This document shows, one piece after another, positions 1-5,797 of a DNA stretch of 64,000 bases; positions within the stretch are counted from its first letter, which is position 1, and each line of letters begins with the position of its first letter. A program made the translations under genes and the position numbers. The stretch lies in the IMG/VR virus record IMGVR_UViG_3300025000_000085. One strand, given 5' to 3'. The notes beneath the pieces are model-generated. The model made no database searches. It saw only the letters and a list, made by a program, of their open reading frames with translations, and had not been told where the DNA came from. The stretch comes from an uncultured virus (IMG/VR IMGVR_UViG_3300025000_000085). Its lineage: Duplodnaviria; Heunggongvirae; Uroviricota; Caudoviricetes.

Positions 1-290
1 CCTTGTCGCCCGCCGTGGCCGTCCCCCTGTCGCCCGCCGTGGCCGTCCCCCACGTGCCCGCCGTGGCCGTGCCCCTGTCGCCCGCCGTGGCCGTCCCCTC
101 GTCGCCCGCCGTGGCCGTCCCCCTGTCGCCCGCCGTCGCCGTGCCGCTGTAGCCCGCCGTGGCCGTCCCCCTGTCGCCCGCCGTCGCCGTGCCGCTGTCG
201 CCCGCCGTGGCCGTCCCCCTGTCGCCCGCCGTGGCCGTGCCGCTGTAGCCCGCCGTGGCCGTCCCCCACGTGCCCGCCGTGGCCGTGCCG
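1..290 (-). repeat. 24-bp tandem repeat, about 12 copies, encoding AG(D/Y/T)(R/S/W/E/K)GTAT
   Basis: Unit gccgtggccgtccccctgtcgccc and variants, in frame with the 1-682 CDS. Confidence 0.95.
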
Positions 291-682
291 CCGACGATGC
301 TGGTGCCCGCCGGTGCGTGCTGCGCCACAAGAGCGGTGGCGCCCAGGCGGTCGCCGCAGAAGATCACGGTGCCCGAGGGAAACTTCACCTTGCCGGACAG
401 CTCCACGCAGGCGGCCGCCTCGACCTCCACCACCATCCACTTTGCCTCGGCGTTCCAGCTCACCAGGTCGCCGTCTCCCTGCCCCCAGAGCAGCCCGTGC
501 AGCCCATTGCCGCACTTGGGCTTCGGGTCCCAGTCCGGGCAGCTGACCGGGCCAGACTCGGGCCACTGGAATCCGCCGTGGGCCTGCAGCTCGGCGTTGC
601 AGGTGCGCAGCACGAGAGCCTTTCCGTCGGGGAGGCAATAGAGCTGCGCTGGATTGTGCTGCTGGCTGGCTGTGTCGCTCAT
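1..682 (-). CDS. Ice-nucleation-protein-like protein: INP N-terminal domain plus octapeptide AGxxGTAT repeats (3' end off window)
   Basis: Not in ORF track. Hand translation from ATG 682 (ATGA overlap with the upstream gene): MSDTAS...KALVLRTCNAELQAHGGFQWP...NGLHGLLWGQG...AKWMVVEV...GKVKFPSGTVIFCGDR...GTATAGDRGTATAG; open to the window edge. Confidence 0.85.
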   Translation of the reverse strand, partial: MSDTASQQHNPAQLYCLPDGKALVLRTCNAELQAHGGFQWPESGPVSCPDWDPKPKCGNGLHGLLWGQGDGDLVSWNAEAKWMVVEVEAAACVELSGKVKFPSGTVIFCGDRLGATALVAQHAPAGTSIVGGTATAGTWGTATAGYSGTATAGDRGTATAGDSGTATAGDRGTATAGYSGTATAGDRGTATAGDEGTATAGDRGTATAGTWGTATAGDRGTATAGDK

Positions 683-1464
683 CGTCCGCTCCGATTGCAA
701 GGCTCGCAGTCTTTAGCCGGCACGAACTTGTGGTTGTCCGTGCGCTGATGTTCAGTGTTCCATTTGTGGTACTGGATGATTGCGCCGATGGCGCTCCATG
801 CCCTTTCGTATTGTTCTGTGCTTATCTCTGCGATGAAGATATGCCCAGACTTGCACCTGATTGTTTCTGCTCTGCTGCCGGCGACCCACCCCGTTGGCGC
901 TCCGCATTGGCAATTAACCATTTGAACAGATTTTTTTCGGTGGCTACCACATCCGTTCACAGACGGAGTCGTGAGCGCCATTTCGATTGTCCAGCCGATC
1001 CGCAATCGTCCCTTGACGTTATTTGGGCGGACTTTGTTAATCTCTGCCAATTCCGTGATCGTCTTTGTTTCGTTGTCGATAGTAGCAAAGCGATTACTTC
1101 TGGTGTTGCGCATCTGTTCGTACTGATATGCCCATCGACAATTGAACGGTTCGTAGTTTCCTTCGTTATTGATGCGGTCAATTGAATGACTAGTCGACGG
1201 CCGGAGTCCCATGTCTCCGAGAAATGCTAGGAAGCTGCTGCGCCATTCTGTGCAGACAGAAATGCCACGTTCGCCATAGTTGACGTAGGCTGGTTTTTTT
1301 GCATTGTGGCACCGTTCAATCATTTGCCGCCAAATGTTATATTCGCTCATCTTTGTGGCGCTAGTGAAGTTGCTGCGCATCGTGACGCCGGTACTTTTGG
1401 GCAGCAAAGGTTTTGCTCGTTTTTTCCTCTGCCTGTAAACCGATGTATTTTCAGCGGAACTCAT
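679..1464 (-). CDS. HNH homing-endonuclease-like protein with Cys-rich C-terminal extension
   Basis: Motifs YNIWRQMIERC..YGERGISVC..SIDRINNEGNYEPFNCRWA..N; RBS-like AAGGTAGG before ATG 1464; lower GC than flanks. Confidence 0.8.
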   Translation of the reverse strand: MSSAENTSVYRQRKKRAKPLLPKSTGVTMRSNFTSATKMSEYNIWRQMIERCHNAKKPAYVNYGERGISVCTEWRSSFLAFLGDMGLRPSTSHSIDRINNEGNYEPFNCRWAYQYEQMRNTRSNRFATIDNETKTITELAEINKVRPNNVKGRLRIGWTIEMALTTPSVNGCGSHRKKSVQMVNCQCGAPTGWVAGSRAETIRCKSGHIFIAEISTEQYERAWSAIGAIIQYHKWNTEHQRTDNHKFVPAKDCEPCNRSGR

Positions 1465-2394: not shown

Positions 2395-2442
2395 GGCGCC
2401 GCCCCGACGGGCAGCAGATCAGGTTCAGGCCGCGGCGCCCTG
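2395..2442 (-). repeat. 48-bp dispersed element, copy 1 (QGAAA-stop plus hairpin)
   Basis: Identical to 2953-3000; diverged copy at 3601-3651. Confidence 0.95.
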
Positions 2443-2913
2443 CGGCTGCTCCGAGCCACCTTCGGGCCGCGGCGTCTCGTCGATGAGAGAGCGAATCACC
2501 ACACCGGCCTCACGCTCCTCGTCGGTCAGCTCACAGTCGTCGCAGTTGCCCCGCAGGTCCGAGCAGTCGCCCCGCAGGCCCGAGCAGTCGCCCCACAGGC
2601 CCGAGCAGTTGCCCCACAGGCCCGAGCAGTTGCCCCGCAGGTCCGAGCAGTCGCCCCACAGGCCCGAGCAGTCGCCCTCCAGGCCCGAGCAGTTGCCCCG
2701 CAGGCCCGAGCAGTCGCCCCGCAGGCCCGAGCAGTCGCCCTCCAGGCCCGAGCAGTTGCCCTCCAGGCCCGAGCAGTCGCCCCGCAGGCCCGAGCAGTCG
2801 CCCTCCAGGCCCGAGCAGTTGCCCTCCAGGCCCGAGCAGGGTCCGTCGTGCCGGATGCCGTCGATGTAGTGGTGCAGACCGGACGTATCGCTGAGCCTCA
2901 GCGCTTTTTTCAT
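2425..2913 (-). CDS. Cys-rich heptapeptide-repeat protein (G[DN]CSGL[RWE] x ~14)
   Basis: RBS GGAGGG; 21-bp tandem repeat at ~2541-2838 flanked by unique N- and C-termini. Confidence 0.85.
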   Translation of the reverse strand: MKKALRLSDTSGLHHYIDGIRHDGPCSGLEGNCSGLEGDCSGLRGDCSGLEGNCSGLEGDCSGLRGDCSGLRGNCSGLEGDCSGLWGDCSDLRGNCSGLWGNCSGLWGDCSGLRGDCSDLRGNCDDCELTDEEREAGVVIRSLIDETPRPEGGSEQPQGAAA

Positions 2914-3082: not shown

Positions 3083-3262
3083 ATGACAAAGGACGAAAAA
3101 ATCAAACTGGCGGCGGAGATCGGTGCACGGCTGACGACGTCGATCCACGATCGAACCAAGTACCGTGGGGAAACCTTCGAGGATCGAACGATTGCAACCT
3201 GGCTTCTCATGTCGAAAAAGGTCCTCAGTTCGTTGGACGAGTTGGAGTCCGACATCCGCTAG
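3083..3262 (+). CDS. Small hypothetical protein, antisense to the cro operon (paralog B, MTKDEKIKLAAE)
   Basis: RBS GGAGGAG; 59 aa; converges on 3259-3561. Confidence 0.7.
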   Translation: MTKDEKIKLAAEIGARLTTSIHDRTKYRGETFEDRTIATWLLMSKKVLSSLDELESDIR

Positions 3263-3561
3263 GCAAAGCGGAGCGAAAACAGTACGCTCGCCACCTGGTC
3301 ACACGCGTGCGGCGCGTCGATGAGTCCAAGATTCAGGAACAGGACTGCCCATTTCAGGGTGGTCTCGACCTGATCCCGGGCCGGACCTTTCTCTGGATGG
3401 CCGCTGGCCTTCAGGAGATCGGGCAGCTTGGCCAAGACGCCGAGGTAATGTGCAACGAGCCGCTGCTCCGGCGTTGTCGGATCGTCGAAGGAGGTCTGCT
3501 CGCTCTGCTCGCTCTGCTCGCTCTGCTCGCTCTGCTCGCTCTGCTCGCTCTGCTCGTTCAT
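3259..3561 (-). CDS. Hypothetical protein with N-terminal (EQS)n tract
   Basis: 9-bp repeat ctgctcgct x ~6-7 at ~3497-3556; RBS-like GAGAGGCGAGAG. Confidence 0.7.
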   Translation of the reverse strand: MNEQSEQSEQSEQSEQSEQSEQTSFDDPTTPEQRLVAHYLGVLAKLPDLLKASGHPEKGPARDQVETTLKWAVLFLNLGLIDAPHACDQVASVLFSLRFA

Positions 3562-3600
3562 CTCTCGCCTCTCGCCGGCCTTCCGGCGCACTCTTGGATG

Positions 3601-3651
3601 GCCGCCCCGACGGGCGGCTGTTCAGGTTCAGGCCGCCGCGCCCTGGCGCTC
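3601..3651 (-). repeat. 48-bp dispersed element, copy 3 (diverged, overlaps the cro stop codon)
   Basis: gccgccccgacgggcggctgttcaggttcaggccgccgcgccctggcgctc. Confidence 0.9.
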
Positions 3652-3942
3652 GGCGGCGGGCTCGTCTTGCCCCTCTGCGGGGGAGGGAGGGGAGGCCTCC
3701 GCGGCTGCCGACCGTTCTTTCGGTGATGAATCGGCATGTTCGGCCGCAGGAGAAGGCAACCAGGCTTCCGTTGGAATGCCGATCTTGTCCATGATGGCAT
3801 GAGCAAGAGCGAGTCCGGCGGACCGCTTGCCTGCGAGGATGAGCCAGATGGTCGGACCAGAACACCCGATCATGTGAGCCAGCTGCCTGGTGCTGAGGCC
3901 CTGTTCGGCCTGGTATTGGGCGAGTAATTCTCTCCCTGTCAT
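3628..3942 (-). CDS. Cro-like XRE HTH regulator
   Basis: GLSTRQLAHMIGCSGPTIWLILAGKR HTH; divergent from the repressor; RBS GGAGG. Confidence 0.85.
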   Translation of the reverse strand: MTGRELLAQYQAEQGLSTRQLAHMIGCSGPTIWLILAGKRSAGLALAHAIMDKIGIPTEAWLPSPAAEHADSSPKERSAAAEASPPSPAEGQDEPAAERQGAAA

Positions 3943-3963
3943 GGATGGCACCTCCGAGGTAGA

Positions 3964-4018
3964 GGAATACCCGGGCTGCTAGCGTTAGTCAACAGCGCAG
4001 TTGCTAGCCCTTGATAGC
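3964..4018. promoter_or_regulatory. cro promoter (TTGACT-N17-TATTCC, minus strand) with two 16-bp operators (3978-3993, 4003-4018)
   Basis: GCTAGCGTTAGTCAAC and GCTAGCCCTTGATAGC; same architecture at 8109-8161. Confidence 0.75.
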
Positions 4019-4030
4019 GAAGGACGTGCG

Positions 4031-4555
4031 ATGGAAGAAGACATGGTCAAGCTGGCCGAAATCGTGCGCCTCAACATCATAGAGCTGCGTCGGCAGCGCG
4101 GGATGTCTCAGGCCGACCTGTGCCGCGCGTCCGGGATCACGACTGCGGCGCTATCCCTGATTGAACGAGCGGAGCGGGCTGCCCATATCGACACCATCCA
4201 GGCTCTCGCTCGCGGCCTCGGCATCCCCCCTGATGCAATGCTCCGACCGCTCACCGCAGCAGAGCGCGGCGAGCTGGCCGAGCTGCCTCCTCCCCTGCCT
4301 CCCGACGAGCACTCCCTGCTGACCCACTACCGCATCATCTCCGCCGACGAGCAGCGCCGGGTGCGCTACCTGGCTGCGGGCTTCGCCGGCACGGCCGACC
4401 AAGTGGAGGCAGCCGTGCCCGCGCCCCCTGCTGCCCCCCCGCCCCTGCCCGAGGACGAGCAGGAGCTGCTGGAGCGGTGGCGCCAGCTCTCCGGGGAGCG
4501 GAAGGGGAGGGTGCTGGCCTACCTCGACGGGATGCTGGAGGCAGCGAAGGAATGA
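4031..4555 (+). CDS. CI-like repressor (XRE HTH) with two tandem short C-terminal helical repeats
   Basis: LRRQRGMSQADLCRASGITTAALSLIERAER; repeats LPPDEHSLLTHYR and LPEDEQELLERWR; no S24 peptidase domain seen. Confidence 0.85.
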   Translation: MEEDMVKLAEIVRLNIIELRRQRGMSQADLCRASGITTAALSLIERAERAAHIDTIQALARGLGIPPDAMLRPLTAAERGELAELPPPLPPDEHSLLTHYRIISADEQRRVRYLAAGFAGTADQVEAAVPAPPAAPPPLPEDEQELLERWRQLSGERKGRVLAYLDGMLEAAKE

Positions 4556-5037
4556 CCGACGAGGAGATCCAGCGACTCCTGCAAGAGGTCAAGCGGCCGG
4601 TCGGGCGTCCCAGGCGCTCGGTAGGCTTCGGTGAGCGCTTCGACGTCAACCTGACGGGCGCGGACACCGAAACGGCCTATGTGCTCTACGGCAGGCAGAA
4701 CTCAGAGGTGCCCGAGGACTTCCGGGTCGGCCTTCGGATTCGGCGAGCAGACAGCGCAGACCGCCAGCTGCGCACCTACAACGGCGAGGCTCACTCGCAC
4801 AACAACCCCCTCGAGGGCGAACGGTTGCCGAAGGGGTTTCACATCCACACGGCGACGCAGCGGTACCAGGCCCGCCGCAATCGACTGGACGGTTACGCCG
4901 AGGTCACGGATCGCTATAATGATCTGCGCGGTGCGCTGTCGGCCATGCTGGTGGACTGCCACATCGCTGGGTTGACCGTCGAGGAGCTGCTTCCCCCTAC
5001 CCAGGGGAGCTTGCTCGAGCTGATGGATGAAGATTGA
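4552..5037 (+). CDS. Conserved hypothetical protein, partner of the DUF1828 gene (His-rich YNG..HSHNNP..FHIH)
   Basis: ATGA-coupled to cI; overlaps the next gene. Confidence 0.7.
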   Translation: MTDEEIQRLLQEVKRPVGRPRRSVGFGERFDVNLTGADTETAYVLYGRQNSEVPEDFRVGLRIRRADSADRQLRTYNGEAHSHNNPLEGERLPKGFHIHTATQRYQARRNRLDGYAEVTDRYNDLRGALSAMLVDCHIAGLTVEELLPPTQGSLLELMDED

Positions 5038-5797
5038 CCTCCCGGATCGCATCGTTCACCTCTGTCCAGGCGTCCGGTCTGCACGGCTGCGCCAAGACGG
5101 CTGGACGGAGATCGACTCGATGTTCGCCTTCCCGGATGGCGACGAGTTCCTGATCCACGCCAAGGAGCTGCCCGGGAGCGGGCTGCGGTTCTCGGACCGG
5201 GGCCACACGCTGATGCGGCTGAGCTACGACATGGACGTGGACCAGCTGCGCAGCGGCAAGCGAGGGCGCCTCTTCGAGTCGATCTTGGCCAACCGCGAGG
5301 CAGACGGAGTGTTGCAGCTCGACGTGCCGCTGGATCAGGCCACCGAGGGGCTGTTTCGCTTCGGCCAGGCGCTGACCCAGCTGCACGACCTGAGCTTCCT
5401 CGAGCAGTCCAGGGCGGAGTTCACCTTTTACAGCGATCTCCGCTCGCTGCTGGATTCCATCGTCCCGGCCAGCCTGGTGCAACCGGACTTCGTCGTGCCC
5501 CAGATCGAGCACGGCGAAGACTACCCGATAGACTTCCGGATCGAGGGGAAGCTCGACCCGCTCTTCCTCTTCGGCATCCCCGGGCGAGACAAGGCCCGGC
5601 TGGTCACCATCGTGCTCGAGCACCTGCTGCGGGCAAGCGTGCCCTTCGAGTCGTTGCTCGTCTTCGCCAACCAGGAGGAGCTTCCGCGAAGGGACCTCGC
5701 CCGGCTCTCCAACGTCGGCGGTGAGATGGTGGCGTCGCTCGGCGCCATGGACGACCTCCGGCGCAAGCTGTCGCGCAGGGTCCCCGCCCTCGCATGA
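5027..5797 (+). CDS. DUF1828-family-like protein
   Basis: I.S.F.FPDGD...FSDRGHTLMRLSY N-terminal motif; C-terminal YPIDF.IE region. Confidence 0.7.
   Translation: MKIDLPDRIVHLCPGVRSARLRQDGWTEIDSMFAFPDGDEFLIHAKELPGSGLRFSDRGHTLMRLSYDMDVDQLRSGKRGRLFESILANREADGVLQLDVPLDQATEGLFRFGQALTQLHDLSFLEQSRAEFTFYSDLRSLLDSIVPASLVQPDFVVPQIEHGEDYPIDFRIEGKLDPLFLFGIPGRDKARLVTIVLEHLLRASVPFESLLVFANQEELPRRDLARLSNVGGEMVASLGAMDDLRRKLSRRVPALA

What the first reader, a model, noticed from the sequence alone, without database searches (positions are those of the whole stretch)
1..682. Phage early gene built like a bacterial ice nucleation protein (missed by the ORF track)
Seen: a minus-strand ORF with KALVLRTC..GFQWP..NGLHGLLWGQG..AKWMVVEV..GKVKFP..GDR, followed by at least 12 octapeptides AGxxGTAT that continue past the window edge. 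Knowledge, recalled from memory: the Pseudomonas syringae InaZ N-domain reads DKALVLRTC..GLIWP..NGLVGLLWGAG..ARWIVCEV..GMVKFP..GDR and is followed by AGYGSTxT octapeptides whose TxT motifs order water. Here every octamer carries TAT. Inference: this is a TxT-rich beta-solenoid, either ice-active or a phage relative of INPs with another role. Its place in the early cro operon, not in a moron, fits a non-ice intracellular function.
Basis: partly seen in the sequence, partly recalled or inferred. Interest (0 to 1): 0.8.

Follow-up and report, generated by a model that had tools for sequence, protein, structure and literature searches.

The report
Phage-borne short ice-nucleation-protein relative
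A temperate-phage early gene encodes a 298-residue miniature relative of bacterial ice nucleation proteins, with the same head and tail domains but a short rod of eight-residue repeats whose number varies, and its job in infection is still unknown.

Summary
Window 2-682 (minus) holds the first 227 codons of a 298-aa protein (P0001): a DUF7666 head, 15 GTATAGxx octapeptides (12 in the window) and a C-terminal cap.

True INPs fetched from metagenomes (PF00818, 1147 bits) match it in both end domains. The head gives 43% identity over 109 aa and hhalign probability 99.8%. The cap gives 97.7%. AlphaFold2 (pLDDT 93.8) predicts a two-sheet beta-solenoid.

It is not an INP in the strict sense. It does not match PF00818, has no 16-residue periodicity and no separate Arg-rich block, and has about 7.5 coils.

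It belongs to a known phage family: phrog_18079, Bordetella phage BPP-1 Bbp36 with its VR2 repeat, and the phage Mica "ice nucleation protein". The family has 2166 clusters at 50% identity. It lies in the immunity and recombination arm of temperate phages.

The repeat number varies among near-identical alleles (12, 15 and 18 units for this same phage).

New lead: the head resembles the C-terminal domain of phage rIIB proteins in predicted fold and in a C-x-x-G-L-H motif that INPs have lost.

Most likely it is an accessory, envelope-associated early protein and not an ice nucleator. Its function is inferred, not shown.

The parts
2..682 (-). First 227 of 298 codons of the mini-INP gene (P0001). 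It runs off the window start.
   Evidence: phrog_18079 E 3.3e-95
293..625 (-). Head domain (residues 20-130): DUF7666, homologous to the INP N-terminal domain
   Evidence: Pfam PF24703 33.6 bits against a cut-off of 27; BLASTP to an INP 43% over 109 aa; hhalign 99.8%; AF2 pLDDT 91.9
497..514 (-). C-G-N-G-L-H motif (C57...H62). It is invariant in 28 phage heads, present in canonical DUF7666 proteins and in rIIB, and replaced by H-E-N-G-L-V in INPs.
2..289 (-). 12 of the 15 tandem 24-bp units (a near-constant 19-base core plus about 5 variable bases), each encoding GTATAG plus a variable dipeptide (TW, YS, DR, DS, DE, DK). Two units make one predicted solenoid coil.
679..682 (-). ATGA overlap of the gene's start codon with the stop codon of the upstream HNH endonuclease gene
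679..1464 (-). Upstream neighbour: HNH endonuclease (context, same strand)
   Evidence: phrog_3377 E 1.8e-48
3628..3951 (-). Small HTH regulator at the head of the minus-strand early operon (context)
   Evidence: HTH_31 and phrog_1373
4001..4555 (+). Divergent HTH_3 regulator, repressor-like (context)
   Evidence: HTH_3 E 1.2e-12; phrog_4, phrog_3 and phrog_8

Best explanation
Identity (shown). The gene encodes a phage 'mini-INP' of the Bbp36 / phrog_18079 family. This family is a true homolog of bacterial ice nucleation proteins in the head domain, the octapeptide array and the C-terminal cap.

Structure (predicted).
- The globular DUF7666 head is followed by a flat two-sheet beta-solenoid.
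- Each GTATAGxx unit forms half a coil.
- By inference from the T-A-T-A strand pattern, both sheets should carry outward Thr-x-Thr ladders, with Ala in the core and the variable dipeptide at the corners. No coordinates were examined.
- An INP-type hairpin cap closes the rod.

Variation (shown for the alleles; mechanism inferred). The DNA array is 24-bp units with a near-identical 19-base core. It gains and loses units in frame. Because the two half-coils are equivalent, any whole number of units should be tolerated, so the rod length changes in steps of about 0.24 nm.

Function (inferred, about 40% for this specific reading).
- It is a dispensable accessory protein made from the immunity and recombination arm of temperate phages.
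- The head brings it to the cell envelope. This rests on the INP N-domain doing so experimentally and on rIIB, which the head resembles, being annotated as membrane-associated.
- There the variable rod takes part in phage-host or phage-prophage conflict (exclusion or protection from exclusion), not in ice nucleation.

Evolution (inferred). INPs are a derived branch of this superfamily. They lost the C...H motif of the head, gained a linker, split the octapeptide into 16-residue coils with TxT and SxLT faces, and expanded to more than 50 coils.
For: Homology
- BLASTP of P0001 against a 1248-aa INP (PF00818, 1147 bits): head 43% over 109 aa, E 8e-26; repeats plus cap 35% over 176 aa, E 2e-16.
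- Cap alone: 30% over 40 aa, E 1e-5.
- hhalign of the phage-only profile against the INP-only profile: head 99.8%, E 1e-29, 106 columns; cap 97.7%, E 1.6e-12.
- INP heads are 41% identical to P0001. That is within the 41-64% range of phage members.

Family
- phrog_18079 E 3.3e-95.
- 8 phage records match, including BPP-1 Bbp36 with its annotated VR2 and the Mica gene annotated as 'ice nucleation protein'.
- 2929 proteins reach E<=1e-3 among 8000 candidates scored.
- 2166 clusters at 50% identity reach E<=1e-3.

Fold
- AF2 pLDDT 93.8, with 4-residue strands every 8 residues from 133 to 248.

Variation
- The window phage's own 90% cluster has 274, 298 and 322 aa. Head and cap are 100% identical; only the units differ, at 12, 15 and 18.
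- Paraburkholderia fungorum alleles have 284, 332 and 340 aa.
- GTATAG counts are 3-28 in 77 viral loci and 2-23, median 14, in 119 proteins.
- VR2 has 9-20 copies and bbp36 is non-essential, as stated in passages of PMC2884959 citing Liu 2004.

Context
- The window is a phage genome.
- Neighbours in relatives are cI-type repressors, RecE/ExoVIII-type exonucleases, RecT/Sak4/Gam-type proteins, ParB, helicases and integrases.

Envelope lead
- InaQ-N alone brings GFP to the E. coli outer membrane. Deleting its first 18 aa abolishes this (passages of PMC3445048); in the alignment those residues include the strand matching KALVLRTC.
- In the head model's Foldseek search of BFVD, 13 of the 50 matches listed are named rIIB, protector from prophage-induced early lysis, lysis inhibitor or membrane integrity protector; E 1.6e-4 to 8.6e-2, TMq 0.43-0.62.
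- The C-x-x-G-L-H motif is invariant in 12 rIIB sequences.
- hhalign of the phage head against rIIB gives E 8.5e-4 over 75 columns with the motif aligned.
- That is stronger than the same test between two groups that both match Pfam DUF7666 (E 0.015).

Against an ice role
- Hosts include Bordetella, P. aeruginosa and Burkholderia, and locus GC spans 0.32-0.74.
- Relatives replace TAT by NAS/SSG octapeptides (P0126) or by pentapeptides (L096).
- In Pseudomonas borealis INP, cutting the 12 Arg-rich coils to 6 dropped activity sharply (T50 -35.7 deg C), and the authors postulate that at least eight are needed for multimers (passages of PMC10727499).
Against: - No experiment or localisation signal places this protein at the envelope. 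The N-terminus shows no signal peptide, lipobox or hydrophobic helix (sequence).
- The InaQ-N data come from overexpressed fusions. INPs lack the C...H motif, so the heads may not act alike.
- The rIIB link is weak by sequence. hhalign probability is only 23.7% and 0.9% against T4 rIIB alone. T4 rIIB has no DUF7666 Pfam hit at E<=1. No rIIB PHROG is hit by any of the 28 heads at E<=0.5.
- The rIIB mechanism is itself unknown, so the analogy gives a place and not a mechanism.
- Double TxT faces on a flat solenoid are what ice-binding proteins use, and this phage comes from groundwater and soil metagenomes. An ice-related role cannot be excluded.
- The tree of heads is an unresolved polytomy, so 'INPs are derived from within the phage family' is not shown by phylogeny.
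- Copy numbers from short-read assemblies may be wrong, because this array shatters in assembly.
Confidence: 0.55

Rival explanations
1. It is ice-active. The two Thr-x-Thr faces bind ice or order water, so the phage gives its host, or the lysate, antifreeze, recrystallisation-inhibition or weak nucleation activity.
For: - Every unit carries T-A-T on a predicted flat beta-sheet.
- It is a true homolog of INPs.
- The source is cold-prone groundwater and soil.
Against: - The family is common in prophages of warm-blooded-host bacteria such as Bordetella and P. aeruginosa.
- It has about 7.5 coils. Pseudomonas borealis INP lost most activity when its 12 Arg-rich coils were cut to 6, and INPs act as large multimers (passages of PMC10727499).
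- Relatives with the same head and cap carry non-TxT repeats.
- It does not match PF00818.
Confidence: 0.12
2. It is a soluble cytoplasmic host-takeover or anti-defence protein. The rod is a binding or decoy surface for a host or prophage factor, the variable corner dipeptides and rod length track a variable target, and the envelope is not involved.
For: - The gene sits among recombination, Gam-like and regulatory genes, where lambdoid phages keep dispensable takeover genes.
- There is no export signal.
- The repeats are hypervariable.
- Canonical DUF7666 proteins carry Pentapeptide_2 repeats. From general knowledge, pentapeptide-repeat proteins include DNA mimics.
Against: - Net charge is only about -0.19 per unit (median) and the median pI is 6.0. 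That is unlike acidic DNA mimics.
- There is no PADLOC hit and no hit to a PHROG of known function.
- Homology of the head to INP-N and its likeness to rIIB point to membranes.
Confidence: 0.25
3. The head is an enzyme with an ADP-ribosyltransferase-like fold, using the conserved Arg, Cys, His and Lys residues, and the solenoid is a scaffold or targeting rod.
For: - R26, D50, C57, H62, K98 and K100 are invariant or nearly so.
- An Acinetobacter phage protein with a DUF7666 start is annotated 'putative ADP-ribosyltransferase'.
Against: - Foldseek against the PDB finds nothing at E<=1e-3.
- No canonical R-S-E or H-Y-E motif set is conserved.
- INPs keep the fold but lose C57, H62, D50 and K98.
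Confidence: 0.06
4. It is a virion part, such as a fibre or decoration protein.
For: Solenoid rods are common in tail fibres and spikes, and some tailspikes appear among the weak matches.
Against: - The gene lies in the regulatory and recombination arm, tens of kb from the structural module at about 30-61 kb. The same holds in BPP-1, Mica and D14O.
- bbp36 is reported as non-essential and not linked to tropism.
Confidence: 0.02

Closest known systems
Bacterial ice nucleation proteins (InaZ type; Pfam PF00818)
   Same: Homologous head (41-43% identity), octapeptide-based A-G-x-x-G/S-T-x-T array, predicted beta-solenoid, homologous C-terminal cap including the W-D-G-K-R-Y-R stretch seen in several phage caps.
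   Different: - 298 aa against about 1200 aa.
- Pure 8-residue periodicity with no 16- or 48-residue order.
- TAT on both half-coils in place of TxT plus SxLT.
- No Tyr ladder, no linker and no separate Arg-rich block.
- Does not match PF00818.
- Keeps the C...H motif that INPs lost.
- Phage-borne.
Bordetella phage BPP-1/BMP-1 Bbp36 with variable region VR2 (phrog_18079); Burkholderia phage Mica gp52; Pseudomonas phage D14O
   Same: Same three-part architecture, same 24-bp unit (19 + 5), varying copy number, and the same kind of genomic place.
   Different: The head is 39-47% identical. The dipeptide repertoire differs (DR/YS/TW here; YR/ES/EK in Bbp36). The host is an unknown high-GC groundwater bacterium.
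Canonical DUF7666 proteins with Pentapeptide_2 repeats (e.g. L096; Rheinheimera Barba phages)
   Same: Head with the C-x-x-G-[FL]-H motif followed by a tandem-repeat array whose variable dipeptide uses the same [D/N/Y][W/R] vocabulary.
   Different: 5-residue NSGxx repeats, a different C-terminus, and only about 25% head identity.
Phage rIIB proteins (T4 rIIB, 'protector from prophage-induced early lysis')
   Same: The predicted fold of the head matches rIIB models (best E 1.6e-4, best TMq 0.62). The T-C-S-x-G-L-H motif and a K-x-R strand are shared. Both are early, accessory, non-structural phage proteins.
   Different: In rIIB the domain is C-terminal, behind an HTH-like start, and there is no solenoid. 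Sequence similarity is marginal. Function is not comparable yet.
Beta-solenoid antifreeze and ice-binding proteins (Rhagium, Lolium, Marinomonas)
   Same: A short flat solenoid with Thr ladders.
Mycobacteriophage Tweety gp54 tetrapeptide array
   Same: An in-frame, copy-number-variable repeat in a dispensable phage gene, compared with VR2 by its authors.
   Different: An unrelated sequence with 4-residue repeats that its authors liken to those of intrinsically unstructured proteins.

Membership tests
Ice nucleation proteins (InaZ type) | N-terminal domain homologous to INP-N | tested here: met
   43% over 109 aa, E 8e-26; hhalign 99.8%
Ice nucleation proteins (InaZ type) | Central array of 16-residue coils (TxT + SxL[T/I], Tyr ladder) matching Pfam PF00818 | tested here: not met
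   No PF00818 hit at E<=1, while true INPs score 1131-1147 bits. The dipeptide at i+2 is the same in 285 of 1250 pairs against 319 of 1428 adjacent pairs, so there is no 16-residue order.
Ice nucleation proteins (InaZ type) | Separate block of 10-12 Arg-rich coils next to the cap (definition from passages of PMC10727499) | tested here: not met
   DR units are spread along the whole array; the array has about 7.5 coils in all.
Ice nucleation proteins (InaZ type) | Conserved C-terminal cap | tested here: met
   30% over 40 aa, E 1e-5; hhalign 97.7%, E 1.6e-12
Ice nucleation proteins (InaZ type) | Ice nucleation at high sub-zero temperature | not testable with these tools
   Needs droplet-freezing assays.
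Bbp36 / VR2 family (phrog_18079) | Profile match | tested here: met
   phrog_18079 E 3.3e-95; tblastn to Bbp36 41%, E 4e-15
Bbp36 / VR2 family (phrog_18079) | 24-bp unit of a 19-bp repeat plus a 5-bp spacer, with variable copy number | tested here: met
   Units listed; definition; 12, 15 and 18 units in otherwise identical alleles
Bbp36 / VR2 family (phrog_18079) | Non-structural place beside the immunity and recombination genes of temperate phages | tested here: met
Bbp36 / VR2 family (phrog_18079) | Dispensable for phage growth | not testable with these tools
   Reported for BMP-1 in passages of PMC2884959. The primary paper is not held.
Pfam DUF7666 (PF24703) | Score above the gathering cut-off; C-x-x-G-[FL]-H motif | tested here: met
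   33.6 bits against 27; 27 of 28 heads match; motif aligned
rIIB C-terminal domain | Shared fold and sequence profile | tested here: inconclusive
   In BFVD, 13 of the 50 listed matches are rIIB-type, E 1.6e-4 to 8.6e-2. hhalign gives probability 23.7%, E 8.5e-4. T4 rIIB has no DUF7666 hit at E<=1.
Beta-solenoid ice-binding / antifreeze proteins | Flat Thr-x-Thr array on a solenoid; ice binding | tested here: inconclusive
ADP-ribosyltransferase fold | Fold match and catalytic motif | tested here: inconclusive
   Z at or below 5.2; no conserved canonical motif

The most novel reading that the evidence does not exclude
Bacterial ice nucleation proteins descend from a widespread phage family that joins an rIIB-like membrane-associating head to an octapeptide solenoid and a cap.

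- The phage proteins preserve the 8-residue ancestral state that the 8/16/48-residue hierarchy of INP repeats has long implied (that hierarchy is recalled, not drawn from a call).
- The head's envelope association, shared by rIIB, this family and INP-N, is the common function.
- The puzzling signal-peptide-independent surface anchoring of INPs would then be an inherited phage trait.
- The phage rods would act at the envelope in phage-prophage conflict.
Probability: 0.3. Interest if true: 0.8.

Novelty: new member of a known kind. Interest (0 to 1): 0.58.

Why it matters
The origin of INPs, and the way their N-domain reaches the outer membrane without a signal peptide, are open questions. INP-N is also a workhorse of bacterial surface display.

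This work shows three things:
- A large phage family (2166 clusters at 50% identity) shares the head, repeat logic and cap of INPs.
- The head is a DUF7666 domain with a conserved C...H motif that INPs lost.
- The domain may be the one found in rIIB.

Together these give small, tractable proteins of 200-350 aa on which to test both questions.

The family is also a clean example of an in-frame contingency repeat whose structural unit is half a solenoid coil, which explains why any copy number is tolerated.

For the phage itself the gene is an ordinary accessory gene of unknown role. I found no paper describing the family beyond annotations: searches, and DUF7666 occurs in 0 papers.

Tried and rejected
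- Own assembly: not held. The nearest virus record, G001, has no relative of the protein.
- Finding INPs with the search for homologous proteins: 'longer' searches gave 5 hits, then 1, and none was an INP. E-values are harsh against 5.8 billion sequences.
- Other routes to INPs: PF00818 was found in 0 of 401 sampled genomes and 0 of 14 controls. tblastn against plasmids gave 3 P. aeruginosa family members and no INP. INPs were finally reached with a degenerate pattern for a motif quoted in the finding.
- Foldseek against the PDB: nothing at E<=1e-3 for the whole model or for the head.
- Trees of the head. A quick tree placed the 4 INP rows in one clade inside a 15-row set with 95% SH-aLRT. With two distant DUF7666 outgroups they looked deeply nested, but support was low. 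The careful tree of 100 rows (one INP row) is a basal polytomy. Nesting is therefore not claimed. Rows dropped: P0124 (long branch), and near-duplicates above 62% identity.
- Complex prediction with two copies of P0001: no verdict (score 0.30, mark 0.42).
- The look-up of sequencing runs: no RNA holder listed. 15 DNA runs were listed, from groundwater or soil metagenomes of 6 studies.
- Read laying on contigs of 4 runs: in all 4 the long contig stops at 260-306, and the array is covered only by pieces of 43-126 nt. No joints were reported. This shows assembly fragmentation, not heterogeneity. It probably explains why 15 of 77 viral loci end inside this gene.
- Other look-ups: PADLOC has no family for P0001. 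NCBIfam has none. The ESM Atlas returns only DUF7666 clusters. The search of earlier findings returned nothing.
- Literature: Liu et al. 2004 (PMC344406) is not held, so VR2 facts come second-hand from PMC2884959. PMC12978214 and PMC10727499 do not contain the word phage. PMC11515562 mentions ice nucleation only in its references.
- rIIB and related profile tests: hhalign of the heads against T4 rIIB alone gives probability 0.9%. Canonical DUF7666 against rIIB aligns only the 14-column motif.
- The DUF4774 and Prion_octapep Pfam hits on the repeats were rejected as low-complexity matches.
Full report
**What is in the sequence**

On the minus strand an ORF starts at the ATG at 680-682. This ATG overlaps the TGA of the upstream gene (ATGA at 679-682). 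The ORF stays open to base 2, which is 227 codons. It is listed only with open_ends, which explains why an ORF track missed it.

This is followed by 12 exact-register 24-bp units at 2-289. Each unit encodes G-T-A-T-A-G plus a dipeptide: TW, YS, DR, DS, DE or DK. Tandem Repeats Finder reports period 24 (11.8 copies, score 429) and a 96-bp higher order (score 472).

All six frames are open across the array. Three things pick the frame: continuity with the head, GC3 of 0.93, and thousands of homologs. The whole protein was recovered as P0001: 298 aa, 100% identical over the window part, with 15 units and then a 47-residue tail.

**Is it INP-like?**

The window's assembly is not held, and my first routes to real INPs failed. 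A degenerate DNA pattern for one INP motif quoted in the finding hit 4 metagenome contigs. Two of them carry complete genes of 1248 and 1230 aa that score 1147 and 1131 bits on Pfam PF00818, so they are bona fide INPs.

- **Pairwise BLASTP, P0001 against the 1248-aa INP.** The head gives 43% identity over 109 aa, E 8e-26. The repeats plus tail, against the INP's last coils plus cap, give 35% over 176 aa, E 2e-16.
- **Tail alone.** 30% over 40 aa, E 1e-5.
- **Profile against profile, with the INPs kept out of the phage profile.** The head gives probability 99.8%, E 1e-29, over 106 columns. The cap gives 97.7%, E 1.6e-12, over 50 columns.
- **Cap motif.** Several phage caps even carry W-D-G-K-R-Y-R, as INPs do.
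- **Range of identity.** INP heads are 41% identical to P0001. Phage members are 41-64% identical to it.

**Why it is not an INP in the strict sense**

- P0001 and its relatives do not match PF00818 at E<=1.
- The array has only 8-residue order. The variable dipeptide is the same two units on in 285 of 1250 cases, against 319 of 1428 for adjacent units.
- There is no SxLT half-coil, no Tyr ladder, no linker and no separate Arg-rich block.
- There are about 7.5 coils, against more than 50 in INPs.
- In the opposite direction, INP heads do not reach the DUF7666 model at E<=1, and they have replaced residues that the phage heads keep. C57, H62, D50 and K98 are invariant in 28 phage heads. In INPs they are H, V, Y and M.

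**What family it is**

- It matches phrog_18079 at E 3.3e-95 and Pfam DUF7666 at 33.6 bits against a cut-off of 27.
- Among 50,697 phage records, 8 match. These include Bordetella BPP-1, BMP-1 and BIP-1 (gene bbp36, with an annotated 'variable region 2'), Burkholderia phage Mica (annotated 'ice nucleation protein' from a BLASTP hit of 4e-10 to Swiss-Prot Q47879) and Pseudomonas phage D14O.
- The Mica announcement only speculates about a virulence role (passage).
- Passages of the Tweety paper say that VR2 is a 24-bp element (a 19-bp repeat plus one of three 5-bp spacers) present 9-20 times depending on the isolate. They also say that bbp36 is not essential and not tied to tropism, and that its role is unknown. 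The primary paper is not held.
- The family is large. 2929 proteins reach E<=1e-3 among 8000 candidates scored. 117 of 156 viral stretches were confirmed as relatives. 2166, 1576 and 472 clusters at 50% identity reach E<=1e-3, 1e-10 and 1e-30.
- Named members come from P. aeruginosa, Paraburkholderia and Singulisphaera. MAG loci come from several phyla. Locus GC runs from 0.32 to 0.74.

**Structure**

AlphaFold2 on a 60-sequence alignment gives pLDDT 93.8 and pTM 0.76.

- **Head (21-122).** An alpha/beta domain.
- **Rod (133-248).** Four-residue strands occur every eight residues, so two units make one coil and two flat sheets lie back to back.
- **Cap.** Two longer strands follow at 253-260 and 265-272.
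- **Inferred surface.** The strands are T-A-T-A. By inference, both sheets carry outward Thr pairs and inward Ala, with the variable dipeptide at the corners. I had no coordinates to measure this.

**Repeat dynamics**

The window phage's own 90% cluster holds proteins of 274, 298 and 322 aa on contigs of 70.5-71.1 kb. Head and cap are identical letter for letter, and only the units differ, at 12, 15 and 18.

Other clusters also differ by multiples of 8 residues:
- Paraburkholderia fungorum: 284, 332 and 340 aa, with the 332- and 340-aa alleles on Mb-scale contigs.
- One metagenome cluster: 274 to 378 aa.

Only cluster 1 was checked by alignment.

Counts of the core hexapeptide are 3-28 in 77 viral loci and 2-23, median 14, in 119 proteins. 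Position 7 is D 45%, Y 28%, N 9%. Position 8 is R 30%, G 15%, S 13%.

The array breaks short-read assemblies:
- 15 of 77 viral loci end inside the gene.
- In 4 of 4 runs laid, the long contig stops at 260-306.

Copy numbers from such assemblies therefore carry that caveat.

Because the two half-coils are alike, odd and even unit numbers both occur (12, 15, 18). This fits a rod that tolerates any integer. In INPs the differentiated 16-residue coil would not.

**Context**

The window is a contractile-tailed phage genome with terminase, sheath, tape measure, baseplate and endolysin. The gene is the last seen in a minus-strand operon that starts with a 107-aa HTH gene (3628-3951). This gene is divergent from a 184-aa HTH_3 gene (4001-4555). 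An HNH endonuclease gene lies just upstream.

I scanned 150 neighbour proteins, one per cluster chosen from 384 clusters of 494 neighbours, against PHROGs. The hits were cI-type repressors, RecE/ExoVIII-type exonucleases, RecT/Sak4/annealing proteins, Gam-like and ParB-like proteins, helicases, integrases and anti-repressors.

So 'early, non-structural, accessory' is supported. 'Cro operon' is not decided. In several relatives a long cI-type repressor lies upstream on the same strand. In the window, the plus-strand HTH gene is followed by weak PDC-M24-like genes.

**The head: a wider superfamily and an rIIB lead**

Canonical DUF7666 proteins join the same head to pentapeptide repeats (Pfam Pentapeptide_2). 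Examples are a genome locus scoring 87.9 bits and 179 phage records, including the Rheinheimera Barba phages. Their variable dipeptide uses the same D/N/Y + W/R vocabulary. Another relative has NAS/SSG-type octapeptides (P0126). The head therefore caps several kinds of solenoid, and TxT is not a family constant.

The head model alone (pLDDT 91.9) has no PDB match by Foldseek. By VIA-align it gets only weak rows, mostly of ADP-ribosyltransferase fold, with Z at or below 5.2.

The evidence for an rIIB link is as follows.
- **Predicted viral structures (BFVD).** After one DUF7666 protein, 13 of the 50 matches listed are rIIB-type proteins from unrelated phages, at E 1.6e-4 to 8.6e-2 and TMq 0.43-0.62.
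- **Shared motifs.** T4 rIIB carries T-C-S-R-G-L-H-V-C in its C-terminal domain. In 12 diverse rIIB sequences C, G, L and H are invariant, and a K-x-R strand follows, like K98-x-K100 here.
- **Profile test.** hhalign of the phage heads against rIIB gives E 8.5e-4, probability 23.7%, over 75 columns with the motif in register.
- **Calibration.** The same test between two groups that both match Pfam DUF7666 gives only E 0.015. These shallow profiles therefore understate real relations.

Against the link:
- T4 rIIB alone gives probability 0.9%.
- T4 rIIB has no DUF7666 hit at E<=1.
- No rIIB PHROG is hit by any head.

I rate this remote homology probable, not shown.

**How it most likely works**

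Shown:
- homology to INPs;
- family membership;
- repeat polymorphism;
- genomic place.

Predicted:
- the capped two-sheet rod.

Inferred:
- The head brings the protein to the envelope. InaQ-N alone takes GFP to the E. coli outer membrane and needs its first 18 residues (passages); in the alignment these include the strand that aligns with KALVLRTC.
- rIIB proteins are annotated as membrane-associated protectors against prophage-induced lysis.
- A dispensable, early, hypervariable protein at the envelope fits a role in exclusion or counter-exclusion.

I give this specific reading about 40%. A soluble takeover or anti-defence role gets about 25%, an ice-related role about 12%, and an enzymatic head about 6%.

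**Novelty**

The gene is a new member of a family already present in Pfam, PHROGs and GenBank, and its BLAST likeness to INPs was already noted in an annotation. What I did not find in print is:
- the three-module homology;
- the 8-residue 'undifferentiated' state of the phage array;
- the size of the family;
- the loss of the C...H motif in INPs;
- the rIIB lead.

DUF7666 occurs in 0 papers. The supplements of the INP papers were not read.

Noticed in passing
window 679-1464 (-): An HNH endonuclease gene (phrog_3377, E 1.8e-48) lies directly upstream with an ATGA overlap, and its GC3 is lower than its neighbours'. In the contigs laid, loose ends occur at 715, 1130 and 1161, so variants of this stretch may exist in the same samples.
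   Followed up: partly
window 2542-2839 and 3495-3556: Two more in-frame tandem arrays lie in the same early operon. One is 21 bp x 14.2 copies inside ORF 2425-2913(-), giving a C-S-G-L-x-G-D/N heptapeptide; the only family hit is a weak Pfam MSG match. The other is 9 bp x 6.9 copies (E-Q-S repeats) in ORF 3259-3591(-). That makes three repeat-bearing early genes in a row.
   Followed up: partly
window 4477-5037 and 5027-5797 (+): The two genes after the 184-aa HTH gene weakly match the PADLOC candidate defence pair PDC-M24A (E 0.0087) and PDC-M24B (E 4.5e-7). They also match phrog_27326 and phrog_5059. This may be a prophage defence cassette beside the repressor.
   Followed up: no
L096:1486-2403 (+) (genome handle G264); Rheinheimera Barba phages (H53-H67): A canonical DUF7666 head (85.9 bits on the ORF) is fused to Pentapeptide_2 repeats N-S-G-[D/N/Y]-[W/R]. 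The variable dipeptide alphabet is the same as in the octapeptide family. 179 phage records carry such heads.
   Followed up: partly
P0126 (533 aa, metagenome protein): Architecture: DUF7831, then DUF7666, then about 30 octapeptides of the N-A-S-S-G-D-Y-S type, then a cap-like end. The head and cap are kept while the Thr faces are replaced.
   Followed up: partly
L124 (Acinetobacter phage fLi-Aba03, CDS fLiAba03_30c): A protein that starts with a DUF7666-like head is annotated 'putative ADP-ribosyltransferase'. This echoes the weak ART-fold rows for the head model.
   Followed up: no
L008 and L056 (both from IMGVR_UViG_3300005590_000044): The same 43.7-kb viral contig holds one complete copy of the gene near one end and a second copy, cut off in the array, at the other end.
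   Followed up: no
cluster of P0007: A partial member of the Paraburkholderia fungorum cluster is filed under the fungus Aureobasidium melanogenum (KAH0438441.1). This is probably bacterial contamination of that assembly.
   Followed up: no
PMC10688885 (passage): Caulobacter CCNA_02815, annotated 'ice nucleation protein', is listed in a gene cohort in which multiple members carry phiCbK TgrL ChIP peaks in their promoters. Whether it belongs to this family was not checked.
   Followed up: no
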